A stretch of 64,000 nucleotides of DNA from Clostridia bacterium. Lineage in GTDB: Bacteria; Bacillota; Clostridia; Monoglobales; Monoglobaceae. How positions within the stretch are numbered: the first letter of the stretch is position 1; every line of letters begins with the position of its first letter. The notes beneath the pieces were generated by a model. That model ran no database searches. It worked only from the letters and a program-made list of their open reading frames with translations, and was not told the origin of the DNA. Below, piece after piece: positions 19,167-38,045 of this stretch. A program made the position numbers and the translations under genes. The stretch lies in NCBI GenBank assembly GCA_045586925.1, contig JAZNBG010000035.1, forward strand, positions 6,417 through 70,416, written 5' to 3'.

Positions 19167-19271
19167 GGCGATGTGCTAAATCTCTACAAATTATGCGCTT
19201 TTAAGCCTGATTTTGCATTTTGAGAGGTGATGGTTTAACACTTTTTATTATGGGAAGACGGAGGGGTGAAA

Positions 19272-19625
19272 GTGAGAAAAATTTATACTTATGGGAATGT
19301 ACAAAATTTTATAGAAAGAAGTGATGAAAAACTTAAAAACAAATTTCAAAATATTCTTGCCTATATCTCAAATGAGAAAAACGAACTTCGTGAACCTTAT
19401 GTGAGACATATTTCTCAAAACCGATTTAAAGGACTTTATGAAATAAGACTAAAGGTATCGGGAGCTATGTCAAGAGTTGTCTTTTCAAAGCAAGACGAAA
19501 ATATCATCCTTTTATATGCTTTTTATAAGAATGACAAGAAAGACACCAAAAGAGCACTTGAGCATTCGCTCAGGTTGTTAAATGACACAAGAAAAAATAA
19601 TTACAAGGAGGTACTTATAGCATGA
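19272..19625 (+). CDS. RelE/HigB-type toxin-like protein (Gp49/DUF891 family)
   Basis: The EPYVRHI...GLYEIRLK...RVVF...ILLYAFYK pattern matches phage Gp49/HigB-like toxins. GTG 19272 sits 6 nt after GGAGGGG. Confidence 0.5.
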   Translation: MRKIYTYGNVQNFIERSDEKLKNKFQNILAYISNEKNELREPYVRHISQNRFKGLYEIRLKVSGAMSRVVFSKQDENIILLYAFYKNDKKDTKRALEHSLRLLNDTRKNNYKEVLIA

Positions 19626-20671: not shown

Positions 20672-20809
20672 AAACAAATTTTTAATCATATAGGGGGTTG
20701 CAAAAAAATTATTTTTTGGCCAAATTTTTAAATGTGTAGATATTGAAAAAATTGCACACCCCCTAAATGTGCTAAAAACGCAGTAATACAGGCGTTTTCA
20801 GGATGTGCA

Positions 20810-21140
20810 GAATTGTGAATTTTCAGGAAGATTTTGCACTAGTAGGGAGGGTTGCAAAATAGTCTTGAAAATAAGCACTAAAAGTTGTATCAAAGAACAG
20901 AAGTCGCCAAAGCATTTTTGCAGGGACTGTAGTTAAACATTATAATGTAGTTTTGAGTAAAAAGCAGATAAAAGAATTAAAGTTATTGCAAGAGCCTTGA
21001 AGGAAATAAGGAGTATGAACTCTAGAAATAAACTTGCAAAAGACGGAGTATTAGAGTTAAAACACACAACGCTTTGAAGAAAAAAAGAAAAGCAATCCGG
21101 CACCTTTGAAAGAACAAATCTTTTAAGGGTGCTTTTCATT
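20810..21140 (+). repeat. copy 1 of a ~330-bp diverged direct repeat (promoter-like TTGCAG-17-TATAAT, conserved blocks, terminal intrinsic terminator)
   Basis: Shares ACTAGTAGGGAGGGTTG, AGTCGCCAAAGCATTTTTGCAGGGA, AAAAGACGGAG...AAACACACAACG.TTTGAAG and a terminal hairpin plus T-run with the copy at 27850-28170. Confidence 0.6.
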
Positions 21141-21256
21141 ACTAAGAAGTCGATATAACATTACAGATTATACTCAAACACAAATTAGTAAATCATACTT
21201 GACTAATTTATTTTTATATGCTATAATGTAGATAACCTAAAATGGAGGTCATGTAT

Positions 21257-22648
21257 ATGTTTATAGGCAGAGAAAGAGAGCTTGAAGCTCTGAATAAGCT
21301 TTATAAATCAAATAAATTTGAATTTGCGGTTATCTATGGCAGACGCCGCGTTGGTAAAACTGCGCTCATAAATGAGTTTATAGATAACAAAAAAGCCATA
21401 TATTTTATGGGTGTTGAAAGCAATGCAAAGCAGAATCTTGAAAACTTCTCAAAAAGCATTATGGAGTTTGCAAGTGGTATTGAAACGGAATCCTCTTTCC
21501 TTTCGTTCCAGGCGGCGTTAGAGTATGTATTCAAGCTTGCGGAAAACGAAAGAATCATTCTTGCTATTGATGAATACCCTTATGTGGCTCGTTCATCAAA
21601 AAGCCTTGCATCTACTTTACAACTTCTAATTGATAAATATAAAGATACATCAAAATTGATGCTTATTCTCTGTGGTTCTTCTATGTCCTATATAGAAGAC
21701 CATGTGCTTGCATATAAAGCGCCTCTTTATGGCAGAAGAACAGCACAAATGAAACTTTTGCCATTTGACTTTGAGGAAACATGCAGATATTTCAAAAATC
21801 TATCTGATGAAGATAAAGCACTTATTTATGGCGTTGCAGGTGGCACACCGCAGTACCTTTTGCAGATGGACGATAAATTAAGCGTTGAAGACAATATAAA
21901 AAACACATACTTAAATCCAATTTCATTCTTGTATGAGGAACCAACTAATCTTTTAAAACAAGAAGTGCGTGAACCGGCTATTTACACTGCGATCATTACA
22001 GCTATTGCAACTGGCTCATCAAGAATGTCAGAGATTTCAAGTAAAGTTGGCGAAGATACAAATGTATGTGCAACTTATATTAAAAACTTGATTAATCTTG
22101 GCATTGTTCAGAAAGAAACACCGTATGGTGAAAAGGCATCTCGTAAGTCAGTTTACTCCATTGAGGACAATATGTTCCGCTTCTGGTATCGCTTTGTTCT
22201 TGAAAACAACTCAATCATTGCACGTGGTGCTGCTGATTTGGTTTACAAAAGAATTGAACCACATTTTTCTAACTATATGGGTAAGGTTTTTGAAGAAATT
22301 TGTAAACAGTATCTTTGGAAACAACTTCTTTCCGGTAACTGCCCTGTAGAGTTTACCTCTCTCGGCCGCTGGTGGGGTAATGATCCGAAAGAAAAGAGCC
22401 AAACTGAAATTGATATTATGGGAGAACAGGATAAAAACACAGCTCTCTTTGCAGAATGTAAGTGGACTAACGAAAAGGTTGACCTCGGTGTTTTAGAAAC
22501 ACTTATAAAACGAGGTAATTTGTTCTCATATAAAACAAAGCATTATTACCTGTTCTCAAAATCAGGATTTACAAAAGGTTGTATTGATAAGGCTAACGAG
22601 ATGAGTAATGTAAGTTTGATAGAGTTTGCGGATATGATGGAGGTATAG
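21257..22648 (+). CDS. AAA+ ATPase with a DUF234-type C-terminal region
   Basis: Walker A GRRRVGKT and Walker B ILAIDEYPY; ATG 21257 follows GGAGG. Confidence 0.7.
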   Translation: MFIGRERELEALNKLYKSNKFEFAVIYGRRRVGKTALINEFIDNKKAIYFMGVESNAKQNLENFSKSIMEFASGIETESSFLSFQAALEYVFKLAENERIILAIDEYPYVARSSKSLASTLQLLIDKYKDTSKLMLILCGSSMSYIEDHVLAYKAPLYGRRTAQMKLLPFDFEETCRYFKNLSDEDKALIYGVAGGTPQYLLQMDDKLSVEDNIKNTYLNPISFLYEEPTNLLKQEVREPAIYTAIITAIATGSSRMSEISSKVGEDTNVCATYIKNLINLGIVQKETPYGEKASRKSVYSIEDNMFRFWYRFVLENNSIIARGAADLVYKRIEPHFSNYMGKVFEEICKQYLWKQLLSGNCPVEFTSLGRWWGNDPKEKSQTEIDIMGEQDKNTALFAECKWTNEKVDLGVLETLIKRGNLFSYKTKHYYLFSKSGFTKGCIDKANEMSNVSLIEFADMMEV

Positions 22649-22649
22649 T

Positions 22650-24737
22650 ATGGCTAAGAAAAAGAATAAACATGAAGCATTGTCTGTTGGAAGATTAATT
22701 AACGAAGTTTTAGTCGATCAGCTAGGAATCCCATTTCGAAACATAGTTAATGATACAACTTTTTCAGATTTTACAGGTTCTAAAAGACCAGATATTTTAA
22801 TAGGAAATTTTGAATATACTGGATCAAACAATGAACAATATATAAAAAATCTTGTTGCATATGCAGAAGCAAAAGACATTACATGCAAAGTGGATGATAC
22901 TGAGTGGAAAGATGCGGTAAATCAAGGTAAAGAAAAGGCTGCAAAATTAGGATTACCATTTTTCGGTGTAACAAATTGTAAAACAACATATTTTTACAAT
23001 TTAAAAACCGGAAATAGAATTTCTTTAAACGGTAATGTCATCTATGAATTTCAGACATTGGATGTTTTTAGAATAATAAAAAAGCAATTAACCGAAAAAC
23101 CAAATGTTGATGATATAAAAATAGGTATAGATTCACTATCCTCTGTTTCAGAAGCTGTTTTCAACAAAAAACTTTGGGAGCTAAAAGAAGAATATCGTGC
23201 GATAGATTTCGAAAATAATACACAAAAAATAGATTTTACTGTAGGAATGATTGCGTTAGAATATTATGAAGAAAAAGCTGAGATAGATGGAACTAAAGAT
23301 AATTCTATGCAGTATTGGTCTACATGTAAGGCGATGATTCCCAATCCATATACATATGAAAACTCAAACACAATAACAACGATTTTAGTAACATATATAG
23401 ATAGACTTACTGGCGAAGAGTCGGAGTTTAAAGAATTTTCTCCGCTTTTAAAGAAGGTAAAGGAATTAATAAGCGGTCAGAAACCTATGATTAATTCTAA
23501 ACGTTTGCAATCTATATATTTTATTATTGATTCTATGCGACCTCTGCATGGTACGGGCTTTGACTTGTTCGGTGCAGTGTATGAAAATTTTGCAAACACA
23601 AAAGAGAAGAAGGATTTTGGTGAGTATTTTACAAGGCGACATTATGCACATGTTTTTGCGGAGTTATTGTTGCAGAAAGAAGATATTTTTAATTCCGAAT
23701 ATAAATTTTCTATTTTAGACCCAGCTTGTGGAACTGGCGGAATGCTTACAGAAAGTTTTAAGGTTTTGAAAAACAACTATGAATCTTCGGGTACATTTGA
23801 TCAAGAAGCACAAACTTTTTTGTCCGAAGAGTGCTTTTATGGAATAGATGTAAGAGGAGAAAATATTTCAAGAACCCGTTTAAATATGTTTTTGGTTGGT
23901 GATGGGCACACAAACATGCACTCTGATGACTCATTAAACCCAACAACAAAAACTGGGAAGAAATTTTTGAATAAAAAATATAAATATATCATAACAAACC
24001 CTCCTTATGGACCGGGTACAGAATTAGCAAACACAGATAGTATAAACTCTTATAGGTTCGAAATAGCGTTTATCTGTAGAATTATAGATCTCCTAGAAAG
24101 AAATGGTCAAGCGTGTATAATCACCCCTGATGGCATTTTGGAAAACCCTTCTTTGAAAAAGTTTCGAAATGAGATTTTGCAAACATGTGAAATATATGCA
24201 ATAGTTTCTTTACCCAAGTTTGCTTTTGCACCTTATACAAAAGAAAAAACATACGCATTATTCATTAGAAAACTACATGATAGAGCGTCCTCGGAGCAAA
24301 CCAATAAAAAATTGCCTACTGGGAAATTCCAATCAACTCCAATTTGGATGTATATCATTGATAACGATGGCTTTGCTAATTCTGATAAGAGATTCCCTAC
24401 TAGACTTAGAGATTCAAGTCAAAGATGGCAGCATGATGAGGTTTCGGGTTATGCTGATAGCGAAGGTATAGAAAGAAAAAGTATTCTTGAACAGCGATGG
24501 TTAAATTTTGACGATACAGCTACGGGTGGAACATTGTGGATTGATGAAGATGGCATTGAAGTAAAAATGAGAAAAGGTGGCTTTGTACAAATTGACTCTA
24601 TTCGAAATAATGATTTTTTGACTTTACTTCCAGAATATTATCTAAGACCATATGAACCTAAGTTTATAACAGAGGAACAATTTAATGAAAGTATGGATAA
24701 TATTGAACGTGAGATAAAAGAGTTTTTTGGACTGTAG
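22650..24737 (+). CDS. fused restriction endonuclease / N6-adenine DNA methyltransferase (type IIB BcgI-A-like or type IIG)
   Basis: N-terminal PD-(D/E)xK (RPDILI ... AYAEAKD), MTase motif I ILDPACGTGGML and motif IV IITNPPYG. Confidence 0.7.
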   Translation: MAKKKNKHEALSVGRLINEVLVDQLGIPFRNIVNDTTFSDFTGSKRPDILIGNFEYTGSNNEQYIKNLVAYAEAKDITCKVDDTEWKDAVNQGKEKAAKLGLPFFGVTNCKTTYFYNLKTGNRISLNGNVIYEFQTLDVFRIIKKQLTEKPNVDDIKIGIDSLSSVSEAVFNKKLWELKEEYRAIDFENNTQKIDFTVGMIALEYYEEKAEIDGTKDNSMQYWSTCKAMIPNPYTYENSNTITTILVTYIDRLTGEESEFKEFSPLLKKVKELISGQKPMINSKRLQSIYFIIDSMRPLHGTGFDLFGAVYENFANTKEKKDFGEYFTRRHYAHVFAELLLQKEDIFNSEYKFSILDPACGTGGMLTESFKVLKNNYESSGTFDQEAQTFLSEECFYGIDVRGENISRTRLNMFLVGDGHTNMHSDDSLNPTTKTGKKFLNKKYKYIITNPPYGPGTELANTDSINSYRFEIAFICRIIDLLERNGQACIITPDGILENPSLKKFRNEILQTCEIYAIVSLPKFAFAPYTKEKTYALFIRKLHDRASSEQTNKKLPTGKFQSTPIWMYIIDNDGFANSDKRFPTRLRDSSQRWQHDEVSGYADSEGIERKSILEQRWLNFDDTATGGTLWIDEDGIEVKMRKGGFVQIDSIRNNDFLTLLPEYYLRPYEPKFITEEQFNESMDNIEREIKEFFGL

Positions 24738-24746
24738 GAGGAATAA

Positions 24747-25901
24747 ATGAAATATCAAGTAAAAGATTATCCTATTTGTGATGCTATCTCTTGCATGAGT
24801 GGAAATTCTGGTTTAACAGAGGAATTTATATATAGTACGACACAGATAAAGGGTAAAAGGTATATAGTTTTATCCAGTGCTTTAGAAGAGGAAACAATGA
24901 TGGGCGAAGTTCCGATGTGTACTTTAAACGATAAACCAATTAAAGTCTTTGAAAATAAGGAAGGGCTACTGGTTGCCAGAAATGGCAGAGCCGGGACAAC
25001 AAGATATTTAACCCCAGGGCGATATACAATTAATGATCATGCATATATCCTTTCGGTTAAAAAAGGTTGTCCATATAAAATTGATCTGAGATGGTTGGCT
25101 ATTCAATATAAAACTGAATTTCTTTCATATTCATCAGCTTCAGATAATGGCACATGGAACAAAACTGGCTTTTTTAAAAATGTTACAATAGACGTTCCTG
25201 ATATTGATGAGCAGATACGAATCGTTAATATGGTAGAAAAGGCACAACAAACTATAGAAAAGATAAAAATAATTAAGAAGGATTTGCTTAAAGCATTTGA
25301 ACGCATAATTTCTGTCGAATATTCTAAATATGTTAAACGTAATATACCAATTAATGATGTTTTAGATTGTATGAGTGGCAATTCGGGATTAACATCCGAA
25401 TTCATATATAGCACTTTACATAAGCCAGGTAAAAGATTCAAAGTTTTGTCTGGAGCAACACAAGAAGAGAATTTATTAGGAGAAATCCCCAAATGTGCAA
25501 TAGACGATAAAATGATTAAAACTTTTGAAGATAAAGAAGGTCTCCTAGTTGTTAGAAAAGGGAAAGCAGGTGCTACAAAGTTTCTGCCAAAGGGTAACTA
25601 TACAATAAATGATGATGCATATATCTTGTCTGTAAAGCCGGACTTTGAAAAGTTGGTTGATATTAGGTGGATAAAGATTCATTGTAAAACAGACTTTATG
25701 AATTATTCATCATCTTCGGACAATGGTACATGGAACAAAACAGGCTTTTTTAAAAATGTTACAATAGACATTCCAGCGTTGGAAGAACAAAAACGTGTTG
25801 CAGCAACATATGAGAAGGCCGAAAAGTATTTTGAAAAAATACAAAAAATCGAAAAGCAACTAACAGAATTGTTGGATAAAAGGCTCTGTTCAGAATTGTA
25901 A
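24747..25901 (+). CDS. R-M specificity (S) subunit with two target-recognition domains
   Basis: Two internally repeated halves, each ending in an HsdS-type conserved helix (NVTIDVPDIDEQIRIV / NVTIDIPALEEQKRVA). Confidence 0.8.
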   Translation: MKYQVKDYPICDAISCMSGNSGLTEEFIYSTTQIKGKRYIVLSSALEEETMMGEVPMCTLNDKPIKVFENKEGLLVARNGRAGTTRYLTPGRYTINDHAYILSVKKGCPYKIDLRWLAIQYKTEFLSYSSASDNGTWNKTGFFKNVTIDVPDIDEQIRIVNMVEKAQQTIEKIKIIKKDLLKAFERIISVEYSKYVKRNIPINDVLDCMSGNSGLTSEFIYSTLHKPGKRFKVLSGATQEENLLGEIPKCAIDDKMIKTFEDKEGLLVVRKGKAGATKFLPKGNYTINDDAYILSVKPDFEKLVDIRWIKIHCKTDFMNYSSSSDNGTWNKTGFFKNVTIDIPALEEQKRVAATYEKAEKYFEKIQKIEKQLTELLDKRLCSEL

Positions 25902-26018
25902 TGATAGTCAGATGTGTGAAGTTTTTTGATTTGCATATACCAAGAGCTCAAAAAAACATAGACTTTAGATAAGATTGATGTTTAAGTGATTGAACTCTTC
26001 TTACAGGAGGGAATATAA

Positions 26019-26660
26019 ATGTGGAGAAAGTTCCGTTGGGATATGTTTGTTACATCATTTATCCCATTATGGTTTTCTATTATTGTTTTTAATCTATGGA
26101 AAGTAGTAGAAATTTCAATTGATGTTTGGGATAAGAAAAGCAAGTACATTGATAACATAGTAAATTGCATTGAAAAAAGCTATGTTGAACTCGGTGTTAT
26201 GCTTGTTGTTATTTTACTTGTTTGGATTAGTATTAGTGGAATTAGCTCTTTTATAAAGGAACGTAAGTCTACAGAAAATAATCCTAAAGGGAAAATAATA
26301 CGAGCAACTAAAGCTAACAAACTTTCTTCTGAGTTTTTGTTAGCATACATACTTCCTATGATAGCTTTTGACTTTGGAGAAATAAAGGATATAGTTTTGT
26401 TTGTTATATACTTTTCTGTATTGGCCTTTTTGTGCATAAGAAACAATAATATTTATACAAATATTCTTTTGGAATTTAAGGGTTATAAAATGTACAACTG
26501 CGATATTGAGTGTTCGGTGCTTGAAAAGAAAAAGATTTATCACGACAGCTTGATAATAAGTGAAGTAGACTTAACTCAGATGGAAGAAAATGAGATACCA
26601 TATTGGGATTTTGACAAATATATTTATATAGCAATAAACGAGGTGGAAGATAGTGAGTAA
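26019..26660 (+). CDS. hypothetical 4-TM membrane protein (first gene of a two-gene module)
   Basis: 213 aa with four predicted TM helices; GGAGGG RBS. Confidence 0.5.
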   Translation: MWRKFRWDMFVTSFIPLWFSIIVFNLWKVVEISIDVWDKKSKYIDNIVNCIEKSYVELGVMLVVILLVWISISGISSFIKERKSTENNPKGKIIRATKANKLSSEFLLAYILPMIAFDFGEIKDIVLFVIYFSVLAFLCIRNNNIYTNILLEFKGYKMYNCDIECSVLEKKKIYHDSLIISEVDLTQMEENEIPYWDFDKYIYIAINEVEDSE

Positions 26661-27585
26661 AACCGTACTAAAGACAATATGTGAATGTGGAAAAAATGGT
26701 CAATATTCATGGAGTTTGTTTTTCTTCAAAACAGACAAAAGAAATAAACAGCCTTATAAAATGTTTAAGGTTCGTTTTAAAAACGCTAATTATCTTACTA
26801 CATATGCAGCAAACTTAATTGAGACTGTTGATAAGTTTCAAATTGAACCTATAAGCGATGTCCAGGATTACGATGGTGAGAATTCAAAAGTATCATGTGA
26901 TAAGATTGAATTGTCTAATCAACTAATTAGCGAACAGTGGACCTTATTCACCGAAGCTGTTGCAAGTGCCGCTGATGGTAAAGCCGACGGAAGAATTAAT
27001 GGTTATATATTGTACGGACAATCTTTAAAAGAAGATGACAAGCCTATTACACTTGTTAAAGTGGCAAATCCGATAACAAAGCTTACAAACAAAAAAAGTG
27101 TAATATTCACGACTACTGCAGATGATGAACTGGAATTAATGTCTGATGATGTATGTAGGCTTTATCTTACTACTGACTTTATTGTTTTTGATGGAACCAT
27201 GTATACATTCAACCATACATTTGAAACAATCTTTAATCTTGAGAAAACAATGGCTAAGGTGAAGAATGATGCTATAGAAGAGATATTAAGTACAAATGCT
27301 TTTTCTAATCCTGAAGAATTTAAAGCATTGGCAGGAAAATACAAATCATCACGCACCTTTATAACTCTTAAAAAAGAACGTGTAAATAGAATTAAAGATA
27401 AACGCAGTAGGAAGAAAGTCGCAGAAATGCTCAAACTTCCACTTGGTAGTGATGGAGAGTTTAATATAACAAAACCAGAAGATGCGTCTCTTTTATTGCG
27501 ATATCTGTGTTTTAAAATATTCCAGGATAATGAGACAATGGATGTGCTTGAGGCTAATACTGTAAACAAATTAAATCTTGCATAA
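26653..27585 (+). CDS. hypothetical soluble protein (second gene of the two-gene module)
   Basis: 310 aa; overlaps the upstream gene by 8 nt, so the two are translationally coupled. Confidence 0.5.
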   Translation: MSKTVLKTICECGKNGQYSWSLFFFKTDKRNKQPYKMFKVRFKNANYLTTYAANLIETVDKFQIEPISDVQDYDGENSKVSCDKIELSNQLISEQWTLFTEAVASAADGKADGRINGYILYGQSLKEDDKPITLVKVANPITKLTNKKSVIFTTTADDELELMSDDVCRLYLTTDFIVFDGTMYTFNHTFETIFNLEKTMAKVKNDAIEEILSTNAFSNPEEFKALAGKYKSSRTFITLKKERVNRIKDKRSRKKVAEMLKLPLGSDGEFNITKPEDASLLLRYLCFKIFQDNETMDVLEANTVNKLNLA

Positions 27586-27849
27586 GGTTCAATAAAAAGA
27601 CATGGAGAAATCAAACTCCACAGCTTTGCAGGAATATATGTTTTCTGAAACAAAATGAATATAAAATATACATTCATTTTAGGTGAGAAATATACAAATT
27701 TTACTCCCGAGGGGGTTGGGAAAAACGGAAATTTTAGCGTTTTTTGAAAAGTAGTCAAAAAAGCATAACAACTCCACATATCAAATGCCGCTTATCCCTA
27801 GTAAAATAGCCACATTCAGGACTTGTAAAAATTTAATTTTCAGACCACT

Positions 27850-28170
27850 TTTCCCACTAGTAGGGAGGGTTGGGGAAAACGCTTTTTGGTGTAATATTAA
27901 AAACGGTAAAAAATACACAAGTCGCCAAAGCATTTTTGCAGGGAATGTAGTTAGACGTAACGAGGTAATTTTGAGTGAAAACCAGTTAAACGTACAAAAG
28001 TAGTTACAAGAGCTTTGGAGGAAATAGCGAGAACAAAACTTGCGGATATAGTTAGCAAAAGACGGAGCAATAAAGTTGAAACACACAACGATTTGAAGGA
28101 ATAAAACATAAATAAATTCAGCACCGTTGAAAGATTTAAAATCTTTTGAGGGTGCTTTTTCTATAAACAA
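27850..28170 (+). repeat. copy 2 of the ~330-bp diverged direct repeat, ending in an intrinsic terminator
   Basis: Same conserved blocks as 20810-21140. It ends in a GCACCGTTGAAAGATTT...AAATCTTTTGAGGGTGC hairpin followed by TTTTTC. Confidence 0.6.
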
Positions 28171-28233
28171 AATAATAACACCTGTCCGGTGATATAATAT
28201 CATAAAAAGCCATTATGGTTTGGAGGTGTTGTT

Positions 28234-28908
28234 ATGACATATGGATATGTTAGAGTGTCCTCAAGTGATCAAAATGTAGACAGACAATTAATTGAAATGG
28301 AAGGATTAACAATCCCCGTACAAAATATTTTTATAGATAAACAATCGGGTAAAGACTTTAAGCGCCCACAATATATTAAATTGCTTGAGGTTCTTAAAAA
28401 AGGTGATTTATTATATGTAAAGTCAATAGACCGTTTGGGGCGAAACTATAAAGAAATACTGGAACAATGGCAAATGCTGACTAAAGAAATGGAAGTTGAT
28501 GTTGTTGTAATAGATATGCCACTTTTAGATACACGAACTGCTAAAGATTTGCTCGGTACATTCATAGCGGACTTGGTTTTACAAGTGCTTTCTTTTGTGG
28601 CTCAAAGCGAGCGTGAAAACATAAAGAAACGCCAAGAAGAAGGCATAAAAGCTGCCAGACTTCGTGGCGTTAAATTTGGACGACCTGTTATTCCCGTGCC
28701 GGATAATTTTGAGTTTCTTGTTGAACAATGGGAACATGGGGAAATATCCGCCGATTATGTGGCTCAGAAAAGCGAAATGAGTGAATCAACCTTTTATAGA
28801 AGATTAAAAGAATTAAGGAAAAACACAAAACAAAAATCACTGTCAAATGGTACACTTTTTGACAGTGATTATTTTTTGTTGATATATACTGTTAAAAACA
28901 GATTTTAA
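28234..28908 (+). CDS. small serine recombinase (resolvase/invertase family)
   Basis: YGYVRVSSSDQNVDRQ catalytic-Ser N-terminus and a C-terminal HTH; GGAGGTG RBS. Confidence 0.85.
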   Translation: MTYGYVRVSSSDQNVDRQLIEMEGLTIPVQNIFIDKQSGKDFKRPQYIKLLEVLKKGDLLYVKSIDRLGRNYKEILEQWQMLTKEMEVDVVVIDMPLLDTRTAKDLLGTFIADLVLQVLSFVAQSERENIKKRQEEGIKAARLRGVKFGRPVIPVPDNFEFLVEQWEHGEISADYVAQKSEMSESTFYRRLKELRKNTKQKSLSNGTLFDSDYFLLIYTVKNRF

Positions 28909-29051
28909 CACAAAAATTATACTATATTCCCCTTGAAAAGTCAATTAAATGATTTTATTTCTTACCAATCTCCAGTTGAACTGCCTTTGTCAAAAAGTGT
29001 ACTTTTTGGTAAAGCTATCAAGTTATTAGCTAATGGAGGTGTTCGACAAGA

Positions 29052-29552
29052 ATGGAAAACAACAGAGAACAGGAACTGAGGAAGCATAGATGCTGTTTTA
29101 CAGGTCATAGACCTGATAAAATGATACAAGGCGAAAAAGAGATTAAACCGCTACTTGAGGCGGCTATAGATAAGGCAATAGCTGAAGGTTATGTAACTTT
29201 TTTAACGGGCATGGCAATGGGGACAGATATATGGGCTGCTGAAATAATTTTAGATAGAAAGAAAAAGAACAAAAATTTACATCTTATTTGCGCACTGCCG
29301 CATCCTGGCTTCGATAGCAAAAGAAGTGTTGCAGAGAAAATACGGTTTGCAAAAATACTAAAGAAAGCAGATATAGTAAGAGAAATAAGCAATCACTTCT
29401 TCAAGTCATGTTACCAAAAACGAAATGAATGGATGGTTGACAGATCAAATTTGGTTATAGCGGTATTCAACGGAGAACCAAGTGGGACTAAAAATACGGT
29501 CATTTACGCTCAAAGGAAGGGCGTAGAAATCAATAATGTTTTAAAAAACTAA
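29052..29552 (+). CDS. SLOG-superfamily protein (DUF1273/YpsA-like)
   Basis: CCFTGHRP motif near the N-terminus and a Rossmann-like body. Confidence 0.5.
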   Translation: MENNREQELRKHRCCFTGHRPDKMIQGEKEIKPLLEAAIDKAIAEGYVTFLTGMAMGTDIWAAEIILDRKKKNKNLHLICALPHPGFDSKRSVAEKIRFAKILKKADIVREISNHFFKSCYQKRNEWMVDRSNLVIAVFNGEPSGTKNTVIYAQRKGVEINNVLKN

Positions 29553-29637
29553 ATATACAAATACAACAAATCATTGACAACTTCATTATATTATTTTAAA
29601 GCAGTGGTAGAATATATACATAAAGGAGTTGTCGAAT

Positions 29638-30477
29638 ATGAAAAGAATTACAAACGAATTAATTAAGAAATTCAGAGAATATCTGTTAAGTGAAGAAAAG
29701 GCAGTAGCAACGATAGAAAAGTATATCCACGATGTTCTTGTGTTTATGACTTGGCTTGCAGGAGCAGAGGTTACCAAAATGGCAGTTCTTGAATATAAAC
29801 AGGAACTAACTGAGAAGTATGCTCCCACAAGTGTTAATGCCGCGCTTTCTTCGTTGAATAGTTTCTTTGTTTTCAATGAATGGTACGATTGTAAAGCGAA
29901 AGCTGTGAAAATTCAAAAGCAGATTTTTGCCAATAAAGAGAAGGAATTATCAAAGGCTGAATACGAAAGACTGCTTTTAGCGGCAAAACAAAAGAAAAAT
30001 CAAAGACTTTACTTTCTTATGCAGACGATATGCAGCACCGGGATACGTGTATCTGAGTTGAGATTTATAACAGTTGAAGCTGTTTTAAGAGGACAGGCAC
30101 ATATTAACTGTAAAGGTAAGATGCGGGTTGTTATTCTCACAAATCAACTCTGTAAAATGCTGAAGAACTATATAAAAGATAATAAAATAATAAGTGGCTC
30201 GGTTTTTGTTACTAAAACAGGTAAGCCACTTGATCGTTCTAATATATGGTCGGATTTGAAAAAACTCTGTGAATGTGCGGGAGTAGATAAAGAAAAAGTT
30301 TTTCCACATAATTTTAGGCATTTGTTTGCGCGCACTTATTATACTTTGCAAAAAGATATAGTTCGTCTTGCTGATATCCTCGGTCATTCCAATGTAAACA
30401 CTACAAGGATTTACACAATGGAAAGCGGAGAGATGCATCGCAAGCAATTGCAAAAACTTGGATTACTGATATGTTAA
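29638..30477 (+). CDS. tyrosine site-specific recombinase (XerC/D-like integrase family)
   Basis: Core-binding domain plus the catalytic R...HxxR...Y pattern (GIRVSEL, HNFRHLFA, RIYTM). Confidence 0.85.
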   Translation: MKRITNELIKKFREYLLSEEKAVATIEKYIHDVLVFMTWLAGAEVTKMAVLEYKQELTEKYAPTSVNAALSSLNSFFVFNEWYDCKAKAVKIQKQIFANKEKELSKAEYERLLLAAKQKKNQRLYFLMQTICSTGIRVSELRFITVEAVLRGQAHINCKGKMRVVILTNQLCKMLKNYIKDNKIISGSVFVTKTGKPLDRSNIWSDLKKLCECAGVDKEKVFPHNFRHLFARTYYTLQKDIVRLADILGHSNVNTTRIYTMESGEMHRKQLQKLGLLIC

Positions 30478-30584
30478 ATTAAAAAACCACATAATTTCTC
30501 TTATGTGGTAAAACTGAATGAAGAGTTCCCCAATTTGTGTGTTATGAAATATGCATAACGGCTATTTTAACCCGAAAAAAGAAC

Positions 30585-30645
30585 GCCAATAAGACCAATG
30601 TATTGTGGTATTTTTGCATTGGTCTTATTGGCATTTATTTTTTTG
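30585..30645 (+). terminator. strong intrinsic terminator
   Basis: GCCAATAAGACCAATG ... CATTGGTCTTATTGGC 16-bp stem followed by a T9 run. Confidence 0.85.
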
Positions 30646-30847
30646 TAGAGTTTCGATGAAATTTTACAAAATTCTCTCAAATCATTGACATTTCGATAAT
30701 AATATGTTACCATATTAAAGTATAATTATGTATAGAGCAGTTGTGCGTACCACATAAGAGAAATTATGTTGTAAGTGGAGTTTATTTTTTTTGAGTAAAA
30801 TTATGACCGACTGGTCGGTATAGTGTAAACAAAAAGAGGTGTTACTA

Positions 30848-31417
30848 GTGCTTAGCGATGAACAGAGAGAACAGAAAAAGCAAGAATTGCTGGAAAAATG
30901 CTTTGAACTTTTCGTAAAACAAGGATTAGAGAATACCAGTCTGAACGAGTTGGTGGCATACTGCAATGTTCACAAATCAACTATGTATAGCTACTTGGCG
31001 TCAAAAGATGAGATTGTAATCGAATGTGCAAAAATGCATATGCTTGAACTTGATAAGATGTTCAGCAATGTATTTAAAAATCCACCAAATACACTTAAAG
31101 AAGTATTGCAACATGGTTTTGAAAAGATTGTAGAGGAAAAAAGTAAACTAAGGTTTGTATATCAGGTTATATCAAGTCCATTGTACGGAGAACAGGCACA
31201 AAAAGAGTTATCTTCAATTTATATGAAATATGTAGATTATTCTGAACCTATTGCAAAGATGTATAAGGTTGATGAAGCAGAATTTAGGACATGCTTTGTT
31301 TTATTTTTAAGTACAATGCATGACTATTGTATGTGGGGGAATGAATTCCTTGCTAGAGAAAAGTTGGTATACATATATAACAAGGTAACGGAATTAGACA
31401 AAAATAAAGCAAATTAA
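30848..31417 (+). CDS. TetR/AcrR family transcriptional regulator
   Basis: N-terminal HTH (KQGLENTSLNELVAYCNVHKSTMYSY); GTG 30848 is 9 nt after AAAGAGG. Confidence 0.65.
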   Translation: MLSDEQREQKKQELLEKCFELFVKQGLENTSLNELVAYCNVHKSTMYSYLASKDEIVIECAKMHMLELDKMFSNVFKNPPNTLKEVLQHGFEKIVEEKSKLRFVYQVISSPLYGEQAQKELSSIYMKYVDYSEPIAKMYKVDEAEFRTCFVLFLSTMHDYCMWGNEFLAREKLVYIYNKVTELDKNKAN

Positions 31418-31432
31418 GGAGTTGTTTTTAAA

Positions 31433-32569
31433 ATGGCTATAATTGATAGAATAAAATATGATGGTCCACAAGATGCTTCGCCATGGTTGATTCACAAATA
31501 TCCAAGTGAAGAATTTGTTTTAGGTTCGCAGTTGATTGTAAATCAGGGACAAGAGGCTTTGTTCTTCAAAGGTGGAGAAGCACTCGATTTATTTGGTGCG
31601 GGAACTCACACTTTACATACGGGAAATCTACCCTTACTGAAAAAAATAGTTAATTTACCGTTTGGTGGAGAAACACCGTTCTCAGCAGAAATTTATTATA
31701 TTAATAAAACTTCAAAATTAGATATGAATTGGGGTACTGCAAACCCATTTCAGCTTGAAGATCCCAAATATGGTCTTATATTATCTATAAGATCACACGG
31801 CAAGTATGGATTGCGTATTACGGATTCAAGAATGTTTGTTAATGAGCTTGTTGGCGCTATTCCTAATGGTGCAACAGTAAACTATCCGTTTGTTGCAAGT
31901 TATTTTAGTGGTTTGTTAACTACATATGTAAAAACTGTTATTTCTAATTTTATGATAAAACAAAAGATTTCTTTTCTTGAGGTAACGGCGTACTTAAGGG
32001 AATTATCGGAAGAATGCCAAAAAGAGATTTCAAACGAGTTCGATAAATATGGTGTTGAAATACAAAATTTCTTTATTGAAGCTATTTCACCTCCAAAAGA
32101 AGAATTTGAAAAGCTTCGCACATATAAAGAAGAGTTGTCTTTGGGAAATGATTTCTATAAACAACGTCGTTCTTTTGATGTATTAGAAAAATTGGCAGAT
32201 AACCCCAATGCAGGTGGAATGGCTAATGCAGGAATCGGATTGGGTATGGGCTTAGGGGTCGCTCCTAATATGGGAAATATTTTTGGTGGAATTGGTGAAA
32301 ATACCATGAATATCAATGGTCAGACAGGCGCGCAAGGAAAAGTATGCCCTAAATGTTCTGCCCAGGTTGCTGAAGGATTAAAGTTCTGTGGTAATTGTGG
32401 GGAGAGGATTAGCAATTCGTTGATATGTCCATCATGCAATCATGAAAATCCTGAAAATACTAAGTTCTGTGGCAACTGTGGTCAAAAACTTGTAAACAAA
32501 TGCAGCGAATGTGGAACAGAGAACGATTTAGGTCAAAAATTCTGCGGTAATTGTGGAAATAAACTGTAA
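31433..32569 (+). CDS. SPFH/band-7-like protein with three C-terminal zinc ribbons
   Basis: N-terminal SPFH-like region (DGPQDASPWLIHKYP...) and three CxxC...CGNCG ribbons at the C-terminus. Confidence 0.65.
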   Translation: MAIIDRIKYDGPQDASPWLIHKYPSEEFVLGSQLIVNQGQEALFFKGGEALDLFGAGTHTLHTGNLPLLKKIVNLPFGGETPFSAEIYYINKTSKLDMNWGTANPFQLEDPKYGLILSIRSHGKYGLRITDSRMFVNELVGAIPNGATVNYPFVASYFSGLLTTYVKTVISNFMIKQKISFLEVTAYLRELSEECQKEISNEFDKYGVEIQNFFIEAISPPKEEFEKLRTYKEELSLGNDFYKQRRSFDVLEKLADNPNAGGMANAGIGLGMGLGVAPNMGNIFGGIGENTMNINGQTGAQGKVCPKCSAQVAEGLKFCGNCGERISNSLICPSCNHENPENTKFCGNCGQKLVNKCSECGTENDLGQKFCGNCGNKL

Positions 32570-32589
32570 AAGAGGTGAAAAGACAGAAT

Positions 32590-35500
32590 ATGGGCAAATA
32601 TATAGCATATTTTTACATAGACAATCAATTAATGCAATTTGATCTCGACTTGTTGCTAAATAATTGTGTTGATAATTATTTAGGTGAATCAATTCTTCCG
32701 GTAGGAAGTAAGCAACTATTTCCCATTAAAACAGAGAATAAAAAATATTACCTTTATGGGAATTTTAGCAATTGGAAAATTGTTTGTAACGGAAGTGAAG
32801 TCGGAGAAAAAGTTGAAATATCACATGGAAGTTACATCAATTTTTCATCTAAGAAAAGCTCCTATTCTGTTTTGATATCAGAAACAGCTAACTTTAGTAT
32901 ATATAATAATTGTTTGGAAATTCAAAAAAATCAGAATATCTTTATAGGTAGGGCTCCGGAGAGCAACATTGTAATAGATATTAACGATAGTGTATCAAGA
33001 AAACATGCAGCAATAAGATTAGATGCATCAGGCAATGGCTTTGTTGAGGATTTGTCACGTAAAACAGGTGTTTTCCTAAATGGAAAAAGAATTGTTTCAA
33101 GCGAAATAAAATGTGGGGACATTATTCATATAATGGGTGTGTCTATATGTTTTATGGGGACATTTCTTGTTGTTCCTAAAAATATTGTTACAAACGGGAT
33201 GAAAGAGGTCAAGTCTTTTAATGTTGCGCAGCCAACAGATAAAGAGCTTGAAGATACTTATGCAAGGACACCAAGAATATTAAAGTCATTGGATAGAAAC
33301 AAAATAATTATAGATGCACCTACACAGCCTCAAAAATCCAAACAACAACCTTTTATTCTGGTTGCGGGACCTTCTGCGACAATGGCATTAGGTATGATGG
33401 CTAGTTTTGGAGTAACTTTAGCTAATGCACTGAATGGTGGAAACATATCTTCAACTATTACCGGTGGTGTAATGGTTATAAGTATGTTGTTGGGTTCTTT
33501 AATGTGGCCTTCTTTACTTAGAAATTACACTAAAAGACAAGAAATCGCAAATGAAAAGTATAGAGTAGAGAAATATAAATACTATTTGTCGGAAAAAGAA
33601 GCAGAAATAAGAAAATCCTACGAAAGAAATTGCAGAATATGGAATGAAAATCTTTTGCCAGCACCCGATAAATTGTCTCAAATTGTTTTTGAACGAGGTA
33701 TAAATCTTTGGGAAAGAACATTTACAGATGAGGACTTTCTGCAGGTTAGACTTGGAATAGGTGCCAAATTATTTGAAACAGAAATCCAACATCCAAATAA
33801 AGGCTTTACATTGCATGATGACGCATTGATAGATGAAGCAATAAACTTAGCAAACAAATATAAAATGTTAGAAAATGTTCCAATTAGCGTATCATTAATA
33901 AACCAAAGAACAGTTGGAATAGTTGGAGAAAGTGAAAAAATACATAATACACTTAGATGTATGATTCTAAACACGGTTGCACTTCACTCACCTGAGGATG
34001 TAAAGATTTGTGTTATTTGTAATGAACTTCAAATTGAGCAGGTAGAGTGGATAAAAGATTTGCCTCATTGTTGGGATTCTGCTAAAACAACACGATATTT
34101 TGCAACTAATAATATGGAAGCACAAAGACTGCTCAATGATATGGATGAGAAAATTCAAGAAAGAGAAGAATTGATTGACAAAGATGCAATCAGAACCCCT
34201 CATACCATAGTTGTTGTTTTGGATGAAAAAGTAGTTGAAAATATACCTTTTTATAGATACTTAATTGATTCCAAAAACAATGTAGGCATATCCTCTATTT
34301 TTATTGCAGAACACTTTAATAGAATACCTAAAGAGTGTACTGCAATAATTCAAAACGAAAAAGATATATGCGGAATTTATACAAAGAATGAAAACGATAA
34401 TAGATTTGTTTGTTTCAAATCTGATGAGTTTAAACTGACGGATGCTAAAAAAATCAGTCAGAGTATGTCTGAGATTCCGGTTAAGGTTGAGAAAACAAAA
34501 CTTAGTGTTCCTAACCGTGTATCATTTTTGGATATGTATAAGGTGGGAAATATTGAGAATCTTTCAATTGAACAAAAATGGGCAAATAATATGTCAGACA
34601 AAACGCTTGCTGTTCCTATTGGAATAAAAGCAGGCGGAGAATTGTTCTGTTTGGATATACACGAAAAACACCATGGTTGTCACGGATTAGTTGCCGGAAT
34701 GACAGGCTCGGGTAAAAGTGAATTTTTACAGGCATTTATATTATCAGCATTAATTAATTTTAGTCCTAATGAAATTGCATTTGTACTGGTGGACTTTAAA
34801 GGTGGAGATATGGCTCGACCATTTTTGAAGGTTCCGCATCTTTCTGCAACTATATCAAATCTATCCGAAAATATTTTGTATAGAGCATTGATTTCTTTGG
34901 AGGCAGAAGTAAAATCAAGACAAAAAATATTTAATGAAGCCGCATCATTGTTGGGCATTGATAAAATTGATATTAATTCATACCATAAATATTTTAAGGA
35001 AGGTAGATTAACATTACCATTACCACACTTAGTAATTGTAATAGATGAGTTTGCACAATTGAAATCTCAACAACCTGAATTCATGGCTAAACTTGTTGAA
35101 ATAGCTCAGGTCGGAAGAAGTTTAGGAATTCATCTGATATTAGCAACGCAAAAACCGAGCGGTGTTGTTGATCCGCAAATATGGAGCAACTCAAGATTTA
35201 AAGTATGTTTGAAAGTGTTGGATAAGCAGGATAGTACGGAAATGATAAACAGACCGGATGCTGCTTTAATTAAATCTCCTGGACGTGCTTATGTTCAGGT
35301 CGGCTATGATGAAATTTTCGAACAGTTACAGTCAGGTTATAGCGGTGCTGATTATGTTGAACAAAAAGAGTATACAGATGATGAAGATGTAACAATAAAA
35401 CTTATAGATTCTGCTGCTATGCCAATTAGAAGCGCTCGTAGTATATCAGGAAATCTTAAGAGTGGTAAGACACAGTTAGAAGAAACTATAAATAAGATTG

Positions 35501-38044: not shown

Positions 38045-38045
38045 A

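What the first reader, a model, noticed from the sequence alone, without database searches (positions are those of the whole stretch)
26019..27585. Translationally coupled 4-TM and 310-aa gene pair next to the R-M system, a candidate Kiwa-like or novel antiphage module
The genes overlap by 8 nt, lie in a defense context, have no housekeeping similarity and are flanked by the diverged repeats. The size and topology (a ~210-aa four-helix membrane protein plus a ~310-aa soluble partner) match the KwaA/KwaB (Kiwa) layout. Without a profile search this is only an architectural guess, and it could be an undescribed two-gene system.
Basis: inference. Interest (0 to 1): 0.55.

Follow-up and report, generated by a model that had tools for sequence, protein, structure and literature searches.

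The report
Divergent Kiwa antiphage gene pair

Summary
ORFs 26019-26660 (213 aa) and 26653-27585 (310 aa) exist, overlap by 8 nt, and each has a Shine-Dalgarno site.

The "Kiwa-like" interpretation is supported; "undescribed two-gene system" is not.
- **KwaA:** the first protein matches 13 PADLOC KwaA models (best 2e-20) and the solved KwaA sequence. Its AlphaFold model hits only KwaA structures (TM 0.70-0.78).
- **KwaB:** the second protein passes Pfam KwaB/DUF4868 (57.7 bits, cutoff 26.3). Its model hits only KwaB structures (E 1e-9, about 15% identity).
- **Synteny:** every locus with a full-length KwaB homologue has a KwaA homologue (split in two loci) directly upstream, spaced -8 to +20 nt.
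- **Mobility and selection:** nucleotide homology to the closest relatives covers exactly the two genes. dN/dS is 0.06-0.12.

The pair is a diverged clostridial clade. It scores below NCBIfam equivalog cutoffs, matches PADLOC KwaB models only weakly, and keeps 2 of 6 E. coli DNA-contact residues.

The mechanism is inferred from E. coli Kiwa: membrane sensing of phage attachment, then KwaB binding incoming DNA.

Context: a 36.6-kb element splitting spoVAD, next to a type IIB-like R-M system.

Verdict: new member of a known kind, low interest.

The parts
26019..26660 (+). kwaA: 213-aa membrane protein with four TM helices and a cytoplasmic beta-rich C-terminal domain
   Evidence: PADLOC KwaA, 13 models, best PDLC00208 at 2e-20. 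NCBIfam KwaA 66 bits, below the 100-bit equivalog cutoff. PDB sequence hits to KwaA 9o0i_G (5e-6) and 9mrg_A (1e-5). AF2 model pLDDT 78.8 hits only KwaA structures, TM 0.70/0.75 to 9mrx_A. All homologues carry PF28043 KwaA. dN/dS 0.06-0.08.
26653..27585 (+). kwaB: 310-aa soluble protein with an N-terminal alpha/beta domain and a DUF4868 (KwaB) domain; very basic stretch at residues 225-260
   Evidence: Pfam PF16162 KwaB 2e-15, 57.7 bits against cutoff 26.3, residues 125-256. PADLOC KwaB is weak, 4.3e-5. NCBIfam KwaB 29 bits, cutoff 200. AF2 model pLDDT 81.7 hits only KwaB structures 9mrx_D, 9mtn and 9nyu at E about 1e-9, TM 0.58. dN/dS 0.09-0.12. 13 K/R against 3 D/E in residues 225-260.
26005..26011 (+). 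Shine-Dalgarno AGGAGGG of kwaA; also the left limit of nucleotide homology to the closest relatives
   Evidence: Sequence read. blastn homology to L036, L003 and L002 begins at 26005-26007.
26640..26646 (+). Shine-Dalgarno GAGGTGG of kwaB, inside the 3' end of kwaA (translational coupling, 8-nt overlap 26653-26660)
   Evidence: Sequence read. The GTG start and the N-terminus VSK(A/T)VLKTIC are conserved in L036, L002 and L003. kwaA-kwaB spacing is -8 to +20 nt in all related loci.
21199..21227 (+). Possible promoter of a five-gene transcription unit (ATPase, MTase, S, kwaA, kwaB). Context only, not shown to drive kwaAB.
   Evidence: This is the best + strand sigma-70-like site in 20600-29100 (TTGACT-17-TATAAT with TG, 11/12). 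No site of at least 9/12 lies in the 117-nt spacer 25902-26018, and no + strand terminator lies between 21722 and 27585. Consensus scan only.
20818..21136 (+). Left copy of the ~327-nt diverged direct repeat, ending in a terminator-like hairpin (21099-21133). Context, function unknown.
   Evidence: for the repeat; for the hairpin; no Rfam match.
27835..28159 (+). Right copy of the diverged direct repeat, 250 nt downstream of kwaB, ending in the same hairpin (28120-28156) followed by a T-run. It may terminate the kwaAB transcript.

Best explanation
The pair is a Kiwa antiphage defence system: kwaA at 26019-26660 and kwaB at 26653-27585. It belongs to a diverged clade that circulates as a minimal two-gene cassette among gut and rumen Clostridia.

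Shown here:
- Both proteins belong to the KwaA and KwaB families by sequence profile and by predicted fold.
- The gene order and tight coupling are conserved.
- Both genes are under purifying selection.
- The cassette sits in a defence cluster on a mobile element.

Inferred from the E. coli system (PMC11785009):
- KwaA assembles as tetramers in the cytoplasmic membrane.
- KwaB dimers dock on its cytoplasmic beta-barrel and bridge tetramers into a membrane supercomplex.
- Phage attachment or DNA ejection (or conjugation) perturbs the membrane and activates the complex at the entry site.
- KwaB then binds the incoming DNA through its DUF4868 domain, stalls replication and so blocks late gene expression. 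This happens without killing the cell.

Here the basic stretch at residues 225-260 and the conserved R169 and R234 are the likely DNA-binding surface. Expression is probably by read-through from the upstream R-M/ATPase genes, with translational coupling of kwaB to kwaA.
For: KwaA family:
- 13 PADLOC KwaA models match, best 2e-20.
- phmmer hits the solved KwaA chains 9o0i_G (5e-6) and 9mrg_A (1e-5).
- 120 listed homologues all carry Pfam PF28043 KwaA.
- The AF2 model has four TM helices and a C-terminal beta domain. Foldseek finds only KwaA entries, at prob 1.00 and TM 0.56-0.78; the next hit is at E = 2.

KwaB family:
- Pfam PF16162 scores 57.7 bits against a 26.3-bit cutoff.
- Homologues are annotated 'Kiwa anti-phage protein KwaB-like domain-containing protein'.
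- The AF2 model (pLDDT 81.7) matches only KwaB structures over the full length, at E 1e-9 to 2e-8 and TM 0.55-0.60; the next hit is at E = 0.4.
- The motif xRLxxxxD(F/L)x7YxxNH(K)TxET is shared with E. coli KwaB. E. coli R167 aligns with R169 and R233 with R234.

Operon:
- All loci with a full-length KwaB in the 34 species-representative loci have a KwaA homologue (split into two ORFs in L015 and L016) immediately upstream on the same strand, spaced -8 to +20 nt.
- The C. frigidicarnis, L036 and L039 neighbours are called PF28043:KwaA.

Module autonomy: 88-92% nucleotide homology to the nearest relatives spans 26005-27585 only.

Selection: dN/dS is 0.06-0.12.

Defence context holds here and in relatives, which sit next to Lamassu-like, Z1/AIPR/Dcm-Vsr and MTase-S genes.

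Mechanism and activity come from the literature: PMC11785009, and Kiwa from S. thermophilus protecting against lactococcal phages (PMC11514479).
Against: - Both proteins score below the NCBIfam equivalog cutoffs: KwaA 66 against 100 bits, KwaB 29 against 200.
- The PADLOC KwaB match is weak: 21 bits, covering 92 of 380 profile positions.
- KwaB has no PDB hit by sequence, even with a clade profile.
- hhalign against the pMUT2 KwaB gives only 14.8% probability.
- Identity to solved KwaB is about 15% and to solved KwaA about 18-20%.
- In a weak alignment (17.5 bits), only 2 of 6 DNA-contact residues mutated in E. coli KwaB are identical. The mutated KwaA-KwaB interface residues are mostly different: KwaB P100/N101/Q103/Y157 and KwaA H156/F183 differ, and only KwaA Y181 aligns with Y195.
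- No promoter of its own was detected.
- No experiment exists for this clade. The envelope of a monoderm anaerobe differs from E. coli, so the trigger may differ.
Confidence: 0.9

Rival explanations
1. The pair is a Kiwa-derived module whose main role is to serve the mobile element, not to protect the cell from phages. KwaA would sense incoming conjugative or competing elements and KwaB would bind their DNA, giving entry exclusion or anti-plasmid activity for the 36.6-kb element.
For: The pair lies inside an integrated element bounded by a large serine recombinase. E. coli-tested Kiwa systems also lowered conjugation efficiency more than twofold (PMC11785009). Relatives sit next to integrases.
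Against: The same cassette is found in quite different contexts, including apparently chromosomal defence clusters next to housekeeping genes. Its neighbours are classic antiphage genes. All tested Kiwa systems protect against phages. This is a shift of emphasis, not a different mechanism.
Confidence: 0.06
2. KwaAB here is not autonomous. It would work only as part of the five-gene unit (DUF234 ATPase, type IIB-like RM and S, KwaA, KwaB) bracketed by the 327-nt repeats, for example with the R-M enzyme cutting DNA that KwaB holds.
For: There is no recognisable promoter in the 117-nt spacer before kwaA and no + strand terminator between 21722 and 27585. A strong promoter-like site lies at 21199-21227. 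Repeats bracket exactly these five genes.
Against: Nucleotide homology to the closest relatives covers only the two Kiwa genes. In relatives the upstream neighbours are unrelated: ArsC-like, MTase-S fusion and LmuB-like genes. In E. coli and S. thermophilus the two genes alone confer defence. Co-transcription does not imply functional dependence.
Confidence: 0.03
3. The pair is a decaying or non-functional remnant of Kiwa.
For: It scores below equivalog cutoffs. Several relatives do carry broken copies: kwaA is split in L015 and L016, kwaB is fragmented in L025, and only fragments remain in L027 and L031-L035.
Against: Both ORFs are full length with intact start, SD and stop. The window sequence carries all 53 invariant KwaA-clade and 53 invariant KwaB-clade residues. 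dN/dS is 0.06-0.12 at dS 0.3-0.7. Both AF2 models are confident.
Confidence: 0.01

Closest known systems
Kiwa of Escherichia coli O55:H7 RM12579 / ECOR strains (KwaA 195 aa, KwaB 315 aa; PDB 9mrg, 9mrr, 9mrx, 9mtn, 9nyu, 9o0i; PMC11785009)
   Same: - It is a two-gene kwaA-kwaB operon with nearly identical protein sizes (213/310 here, 195/315 there).
- KwaA has four TM helices plus a cytoplasmic beta domain, TM-score 0.70-0.78.
- KwaB has the two-domain fold with DUF4868, TM-score about 0.58 over the full length.
- The core DUF4868 motif and two DNA-contact arginines are shared.
- Both are located in defence islands or mobile elements.
   Different: - Identity is only about 15% for KwaB and 18-20% for KwaA.
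- KwaB is not detectable by plain sequence search against the PDB.
- Four of six DNA-contact residues and most mutated interface residues are not conserved in the (weak) alignment.
- The C-terminal basic stretch at 225-260 is much more basic.
- The host is a monoderm, spore-forming-lineage anaerobe, presumably with AddAB instead of RecBCD (general knowledge, not tested), so the Gam/RecBCD interplay may not apply.
Kiwa of Streptococcus thermophilus 90730 (PMC11514479)
   Same: It is a Kiwa pair in a Bacillota host of about 1.55 kb, located in a defence island with R-M systems. [quoted passage not shown]
   Different: That system is listed as kwaB, kwaA at ORFs 0688 and 0689.
Kiwa of E. coli Nissle 1917 plasmid pMUT2 (kwaA plus a 380-aa KwaB-like protein; NZ_CP023342.1)
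   Same: It is an annotated kwaA-kwaB pair on a mobile replicon. The central DUF4868 stretch aligns with the window's clade profile (hmmsearch 23 bits). The best PADLOC KwaB model for the window protein, PDLC00226, is also 380 positions long.
   Different: Its KwaB is 70 residues longer. hhalign probability is only 14.8%. The host is proteobacterial.
Clostridial homologues, e.g. Clostridium frigidicarnis DSM 12271 (FOKI01000011; KwaB-like 313 aa, 61% identical) and rumen/gut MAGs (Ruminococcus sp. RUG12844, 91%)
   Same: They belong to the same clade: same lengths, same gene order and coupling, with Pfam KwaA and KwaB calls on both genes.
   Different: The flanking genes are entirely different, and homology stops at the ends of the two genes. 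NCBI names the KwaA partner only 'hypothetical protein'.

Membership tests
Kiwa (KwaA/KwaB) | First gene product belongs to the KwaA family by sequence profile | tested here: met
   13 PADLOC KwaA models match, best 2e-20 over residues 4-184. phmmer hits the solved KwaA chains at 5e-6 and 1e-5. Exact and related sequences carry Pfam PF28043 KwaA.
Kiwa (KwaA/KwaB) | [quoted passage not shown] | tested here: met
   The AF2 model has helices 15-36, 55-83, 104-116 and 122-141, and strands 90-98, 157-167, 170-181, 192-199 and 202-205. Hydropathy agrees. Foldseek finds only KwaA structures, TM 0.70/0.75 to 9mrx_A. This is a predicted, not a solved, structure.
Kiwa (KwaA/KwaB) | Second gene product carries the DUF4868/KwaB domain (Pfam PF16162) above the curated threshold | tested here: met
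   57.7 bits against a gathering cutoff of 26.3, E 2e-15, residues 125-256.
Kiwa (KwaA/KwaB) | KwaB full-length fold: N-terminal alpha/beta domain plus DUF4868 domain, as in the solved KwaB | tested here: met
   The AF2 model (pLDDT 81.7, pTM 0.77) matches 9mrx_D, 9mtn and 9nyu at E 1e-9 to 2e-8, prob 1.00, TM 0.55-0.60 over 331-342 columns. No other PDB fold scores below E = 0.4. RMSD is high (7-8 A), consistent with a different domain orientation or model error.
Kiwa (KwaA/KwaB) | kwaA and kwaB adjacent, co-oriented and conserved as a pair | tested here: met
   About 30 species-representative loci have a KwaA ORF directly upstream of KwaB at -8 to +20 nt. Homology to the nearest relatives is limited to the two genes.
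Kiwa (KwaA/KwaB) | Equivalog-level identity with the reference Kiwa proteins (NCBIfam NF041622 KwaA, NF041623 KwaB cutoffs) | tested here: not met
   KwaA scores 66.1 bits against cutoff 100; KwaB scores 29.2 bits against cutoff 200. The pair is therefore a diverged subfamily rather than a close equivalent of the reference. Family-level (Pfam) membership still holds.
Kiwa (KwaA/KwaB) | KwaB DNA-contact residues of E. coli KwaB (N134, R142, R167, D169, K187, R233) | tested here: inconclusive
   Alignment through a broad clade profile (17.5 bits, collinear over about 200 residues) gives R167 to R169 and R233 to R234, both conserved. N134 aligns with V137, R142 with T145 (K147 and K148 are adjacent), D169 with Y171, and K187 falls in an insertion next to H188. 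The alignment is too weak for residue-level certainty.
Kiwa (KwaA/KwaB) | KwaA-KwaB interface residues shown by mutation to be needed in E. coli (KwaA Y181/F183/K194; KwaB P100/N101/Q103, R21/R35/Y157) | tested here: inconclusive
   KwaA Y181 aligns with Y195 (conserved), F183 with D197 and H156 with E. KwaB P100/N101/Q103 align with A107/D108/K110, and Y157 with E159. Co-evolving interfaces are expected to drift, and no multimer prediction tool was available.
Kiwa (KwaA/KwaB) | Formation of a KwaA tetramer-KwaB dimer membrane supercomplex, DNA binding by KwaB, and protection against phages | not testable with these tools
   These are known only for E. coli-tested systems and for S. thermophilus (PMC11785009, PMC11514479).
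MADS (methylation-associated defence system), considered for the neighbourhood | Equivalog match to MAD2 methyltransferase and the other mad genes in one locus | tested here: not met
   PADLOC mad2, mad5, mad6 and mad8 models hit the MTase, the S subunit, two kinases and the FtsK-like protein. NCBIfam MADS2 scores 93.7 bits against cutoff 720. The hits are to generic domains, spread over 23 kb, with recombinase genes in between.

The most novel reading that the evidence does not exclude
The clostridial clade could be a mechanistically shifted Kiwa. Most E. coli DNA-contact and interface residues are not conserved, there is a much more basic C-terminal stretch, and the host is monoderm. So the trigger (what KwaA senses in a thick-walled, outer-membrane-free cell) or the target of KwaB could differ from the E. 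coli paradigm. PADLOC-based censuses may also systematically miss the clade. In addition, the cassette rides on a 36.6-kb element that splits the spore gene spoVAD, which would tie carriage of defence genes to sporulation-linked excision.
Probability: 0.12. Interest if true: 0.5.

Novelty: new member of a known kind. Interest (0 to 1): 0.18.

Why it matters
Practically, this closes the finding. The pair needs no new name: it is Kiwa, and Pfam (PF28043 and PF16162) already recognises both halves.

Two modest points of value remain.

First, it documents a diverged Kiwa clade that is widespread in gut and rumen Clostridia. The clade comprises about 317 clusters at 50% identity. Its KwaB is almost invisible to the PADLOC 2.0.0 and NCBIfam equivalog models, so published censuses of Kiwa built on those models may undercount it.

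Second, the clade moves as a bare two-gene cassette whose homology ends at the SD site and the stop codon. That makes it a clean unit to clone for testing how Kiwa senses infection in a monoderm envelope.

Tried and rejected
- **PDB sequence search for KwaB.** Neither the single sequence nor a 35-sequence clade profile gave a KwaB hit. Only the fold search made the link.
- **hhalign of the clade profile against the pMUT2 KwaB.** Probability was only 14.8%. Direct phmmer of the E. coli KwaB fragment against 150 clade representatives gave no hits.
- **Exact look-up of the window's KwaB contig.** Not on record. Cluster look-up gave no names or accessions.
- **Rfam.** The whole window at gathering threshold and the left repeat at E <= 1 gave nothing meaningful.
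- **The 327-nt repeat elsewhere.**
  - It is absent from all fetched loci.
  - A 26-mer gave no metagenome hit.
  - An 18-mer gave four metagenome hits without extended homology, so they are chance matches.
  - There were no viral hits.
  - The repeat does not encode a conserved protein on the minus strand.
- **MADS membership of the neighbourhood.** Considered and rejected.
- **Antisense ORFs 27162-27779 and 27781-28203.** Treated as spurious. The first overlaps the selected kwaB frame and runs beyond the point where homology to relatives stops. The second lies in the non-coding repeat.
- **Literature search for an intervening element in spoVAD.** No paper found.
Full report
**1. Observation**

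The window contains ORF A at 26019-26660 (+, ATG, 213 aa) and ORF B at 26653-27585 (+, GTG, 310 aa). They overlap by 8 nt: the GTG lies at 26653-55 and the TAA at 26658-60.

Each has a Shine-Dalgarno sequence, read. AGGAGGG at 26005-11 lies 7 nt before the ATG. GAGGTGG at 26640-46 lies 6 nt before the GTG.

ORF A has hydrophobic stretches at about 8-32, 47-81, 104-130 and 119-145. ORF B has none.

The region lies in a low-GC block (0.30-0.36) running from about 19 to 56 kb. The flanks are at 0.41-0.44.

**2. Identity of the two proteins**

ORF A:
- It matches 13 PADLOC KwaA models, best PDLC00208 at 2e-20 over residues 4-184.
- It matches the NCBIfam KwaA model at 66 bits, below the 100-bit equivalog cutoff.
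- By plain phmmer it matches the solved Kiwa KwaA chains: 9o0i_G at 5e-6 and 9mrg_A at 1e-5.

ORF B:
- It passes Pfam PF16162 (KwaB, formerly DUF4868) at 57.7 bits against a gathering cutoff of 26.3.
- It matches PADLOC KwaB models only weakly (4.3e-5, 92 of 380 profile positions).
- It matches NCBIfam KwaB at 29 bits against a 200-bit cutoff.
- It has no PDB hit by sequence, alone or as a clade profile.

Fold evidence fills that gap:
- An AlphaFold2 model of ORF B from a 35-sequence alignment (pLDDT 81.7, pTM 0.77) matches only KwaB structures in the PDB.
  - The matches are 9mrx_D, 9mtn and 9nyu, at E 1e-9 to 2e-8, probability 1.00, TM 0.55-0.60 over the full length and about 15% identity.
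  - The next hit is at E = 0.4.
- A model of ORF A (pLDDT 78.8) shows four long helices followed by a beta-rich C-terminal domain.
  - It matches only KwaA structures, with TM 0.70/0.75 to 9mrx_A.
  - The next hit is at E = 2.

**3. Comparative evidence**

The 120 best homologues listed for each protein all carry PF16162 (KwaB side) or PF28043, Pfam's KwaA family (KwaA side). The only source names are 'DUF4868 domain-containing protein' and 'Kiwa anti-phage protein KwaB-like domain-containing protein' for KwaB. The KwaA partner is named 'hypothetical protein'.

A scan of one genome per species returned 34 loci, mostly Clostridia. The taxa include Ruminococcus, Oscillospiraceae, Lachnospiraceae, Christensenellaceae, Clostridium frigidicarnis, Sedimentibacter and Neglectibacter.

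In every locus with a full-length KwaB there is a KwaA homologue directly upstream on the same strand. Spacing ranges from an 8-nt overlap to a 20-nt gap. Several loci carry broken copies: kwaA is split in L015 and L016, kwaB is fragmented in L025, and only remnants are left in L027 and L031-L035.

Nucleotide homology between the window and its closest relatives (88-92% identity; L036, L002/L039, L003) begins at 26005, the SD site of kwaA. It ends exactly at 27585, the stop of kwaB. The flanking genes differ in each relative:
- Lamassu-like genes in C. frigidicarnis
- a Z1/DUF4420/AIPR/Dcm-Vsr cluster plus an integrase in L036
- an MTase-S fusion in L039

The pair therefore moves as a minimal self-contained cassette between defence clusters.

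Both genes are under purifying selection. dN/dS is 0.06-0.08 for kwaA and 0.09-0.12 for kwaB, at dS 0.3-0.7.

A clade profile finds 317 clusters at 50% identity in 1.84 billion representatives. Of these, 55 score at E <= 1e-30, and nearly all are about 310 aa long.

**4. How far it is from the reference Kiwa**

I recovered residues 39-312 of the solved E. coli KwaB from an alignment with the pMUT2 KwaB. The numbering was checked against residues named in the paper.

A broad profile of the clostridial clade aligns collinearly to E. coli residues 87-302, but weakly, at 17.5 bits. The alignment shows:
- a shared core motif, (I/V)xRLxxxxD(F/L)-x7-YxxNH(K)TxET
- conservation of E. coli R167 (window R169) and R233 (window R234)
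- no conservation of N134, R142 or D169, and K187 falling in an insertion

The interface residues mutated in the paper are mostly different. Only KwaA Y181 is conserved, aligning with window Y195.

Residues 225-260 of the window KwaB hold 13 K/R against 3 D/E. This is a plausible DNA-binding surface, by inference.

The pair is thus a true family member at the Pfam and fold level, but a diverged subfamily. It is not an equivalog of the reference.

**5. Mechanism**

What is shown here is family membership, architecture, operon conservation, selection and context. The rest is transferred from PMC11785009:
- KwaA tetramers and KwaB dimers build a membrane supercomplex.
- The complex localises to phage attachment sites and appears to sense the membrane disturbance of attachment or DNA ejection.
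- KwaB binds DNA non-specifically through DUF4868 without cleaving it, stalls replication and so prevents late transcription.
- Protection is not abortive.
- Conjugation is also reduced.
- Phage Gam inhibits KwaB.

Kiwa also works in a Gram-positive background: the S. thermophilus 90730 pair gave 4-5 log protection against lactococcal phages (PMC11514479).

For the window's pair I consider this mechanism likely but untested. The trigger in a monoderm cell and any interplay with the host's end-processing nuclease are open questions.

Expression is probably by read-through from upstream. No promoter-like site of at least 9/12 lies in the 117-nt spacer before kwaA, and no + strand terminator lies between 21722 and 27585. 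The best promoter-like site sits at 21199-21227, before the ATPase gene. In relatives kwaA starts about 10-50 nt after the upstream gene.

**6. Context**

Upstream genes:
- 21242-22648 encodes an ATPase_2+DUF234 protein, PADLOC candidate PDC-S27 at 3.9e-66.
- 22650-24737 encodes a 695-aa fusion. Its N-terminal domain carries a PD48...E73-A-K75 motif (read) and gives a weak HSDR_N_2 hit. It is joined to an N6-adenine methyltransferase. The best PDB relatives are EcoKI M and the type IIB enzyme RM.BsaXI.
- 24747-25901 encodes an S subunit with two similar halves.

This looks like a BcgI/BsaXI-type (type IIB) R-M system.

The 'diverged repeats' of the finding are a roughly 327-nt direct repeat (74% identity with gaps) at 20818-21136 and 27835-28159. 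Each copy ends in a conserved terminator-like hairpin. The repeat brackets all five genes, not just the Kiwa pair. I found no relative of the repeat anywhere and no conserved ORF in it. Its role is unexplained.

**7. Larger context (side finding)**

The low-GC block is an integrated element that splits spoVAD.
- The N-terminal part of spoVAD (18519-19166) matches Pfam SpoVAD positions 1-207 of 329.
- The C-terminal part is at 55697-56104, followed by a SpoVAC/SpoVAEB-family membrane-protein gene (spoVAE by its position after spoVAD).
- A large serine recombinase (53898-55580) sits at the right end.
- Removing 36,569 bp between the shared CCTG cores (19140-43 and 55709-12) restores a SpoVAD that matches the profile over positions 1-328 of 329, at 485 bits.

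The host is an uncultured Clostridia bacterium. Its MalQ is at best 86% identical to proteins from unnamed, 'Clostridia bacterium' and 'Ruminococcaceae' MAGs.

**8. Verdict**

This is a Kiwa system, a new and diverged member of a known kind. It is already covered by Pfam models and present, unnamed, in public assemblies.

Interest is low, at about 0.18. The small residual value is twofold. The clade may be undercounted by PADLOC- and NCBIfam-based surveys. This is my inference from the weak scores; the actual pipeline thresholds were not run. The cassette is also a compact test case for Kiwa sensing in monoderm bacteria.

Noticed in passing
window 19144-55712 (junctions at 19140-19143 and 55709-55712); spoVAD parts 18519-19166 and 55697-56104; recombinase 53898-55580: The low-GC block is a 36,569-bp element inserted in the sporulation gene spoVAD, with a large serine recombinase (Resolvase+Recombinase+Zn_ribbon_recom+DUF4368) at its right end. 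Deleting it in silico between shared CCTG cores restores a full-length SpoVAD (Pfam 1-328/329, 485 bits). Gene-intervening elements in sporulation genes are known (PMC5595907, PMC4191935). I found no paper naming spoVAD as a target. The spoVA operon is forespore-expressed (general knowledge), which would make developmental excision unusual. The Kiwa pair and the R-M genes are cargo of this element.
   Followed up: partly
window 20818-21136 and 27835-28159: A roughly 327-nt diverged direct repeat (74% identity gapped, blocks of 80-95%) brackets a 7-kb block of five defence genes. Each copy ends in a conserved hairpin plus T-run. The right copy sits just upstream of a small resolvase-type recombinase gene (28234-28908). 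There is no Rfam family, no conserved ORF, and no relative in fetched loci, metagenome or viral collections. It could be a recombination site or cassette boundary, or a conserved 3' UTR/terminator. Unexplained.
   Followed up: partly
window 22650-24737 and 24747-25901: A 695-aa fusion of an N-terminal PD48...E73-A-K75 nuclease-like domain with an N6-adenine methyltransferase, followed by an S subunit whose two halves are 77-84% identical at the DNA level (25023-25219 and 25599-25795). No separate HsdR is present. The best solved relatives are EcoKI M and the type IIB enzyme RM.BsaXI. This looks like a BcgI/BsaXI-type (type IIB) R-M system with a near-symmetric target.
   Followed up: partly
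window 21242-22648: A 468-aa ATPase_2 + DUF234 protein with a weak Mrr_cat-like C-terminus matches the PADLOC candidate single-gene system PDC-S27 (3.9e-66). It is preceded by the best promoter-like site of the region (21199-21227).
   Followed up: no
window 30839-45585: A gene run of TetR, SPFH/band-7 with three zinc ribbons, a 1554-aa FHA+FtsK/SpoIIIE (EssC-like) ATPase, two proteins without Pfam hits, PP2C phosphatase and two Ser/Thr kinases. Zinc-ribbon/beta-lactamase-like proteins follow at 46229-49976. The FtsK-like protein and the kinases hit PADLOC mad8, SspH and mad6/PD-T4-6 models, but through generic domains. Whether this is a secretion-type module or a defence or signalling module of the element is open.
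   Followed up: no
window 30486-30510 and 30748-30772 (also 30575-30642): Two copies of a 25-nt self-palindromic hairpin (96% complementary, 237 nt apart) and a further hairpin lie between the tyrosine recombinase gene (29629-30477) and the TetR gene. They could be terminators or a recombinase target or invertible segment. Not examined.
   Followed up: no
P0025 (Logan contig, 5,476 bp): A 492-aa protein that is a read-through fusion of KwaA (lacking TM1) and full-length KwaB, with junction ...YIAIDGGQKV-MSKEIL.... It is a single occurrence. It may be a real fusion, which would fit a physical KwaA-KwaB interaction, or an assembly or sequencing error.
   Followed up: partly
L001 696-2396 and L039 4957-6405 (relatives' loci): In Clostridium frigidicarnis and in Ruminococcus sp. 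RUG12844, the defence cluster containing Kiwa starts right after a TRAM/tRNA(U5)-methyltransferase-family gene, although the intervening defence genes differ. This may be a conserved integration hotspot for defence islands in Clostridia.
   Followed up: no
L015, L016, L025, L027, L031-L035: Several species carry degraded copies of this Kiwa clade. kwaA is split into two ORFs in L015 and L016, kwaB is broken into three ORFs in L025, and only C-terminal KwaB fragments remain in L027 and L031-L035. This indicates frequent loss as well as transfer.
   Followed up: no
window 19266-19625: A Gp49/RelE-like toxin-family gene (PF05973, 5e-11) lies at the left end of the element. Its stop overlaps the start of a secreted transglutaminase-like protein gene (19622-20671) rather than a recognisable HTH antitoxin gene.
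   Followed up: no
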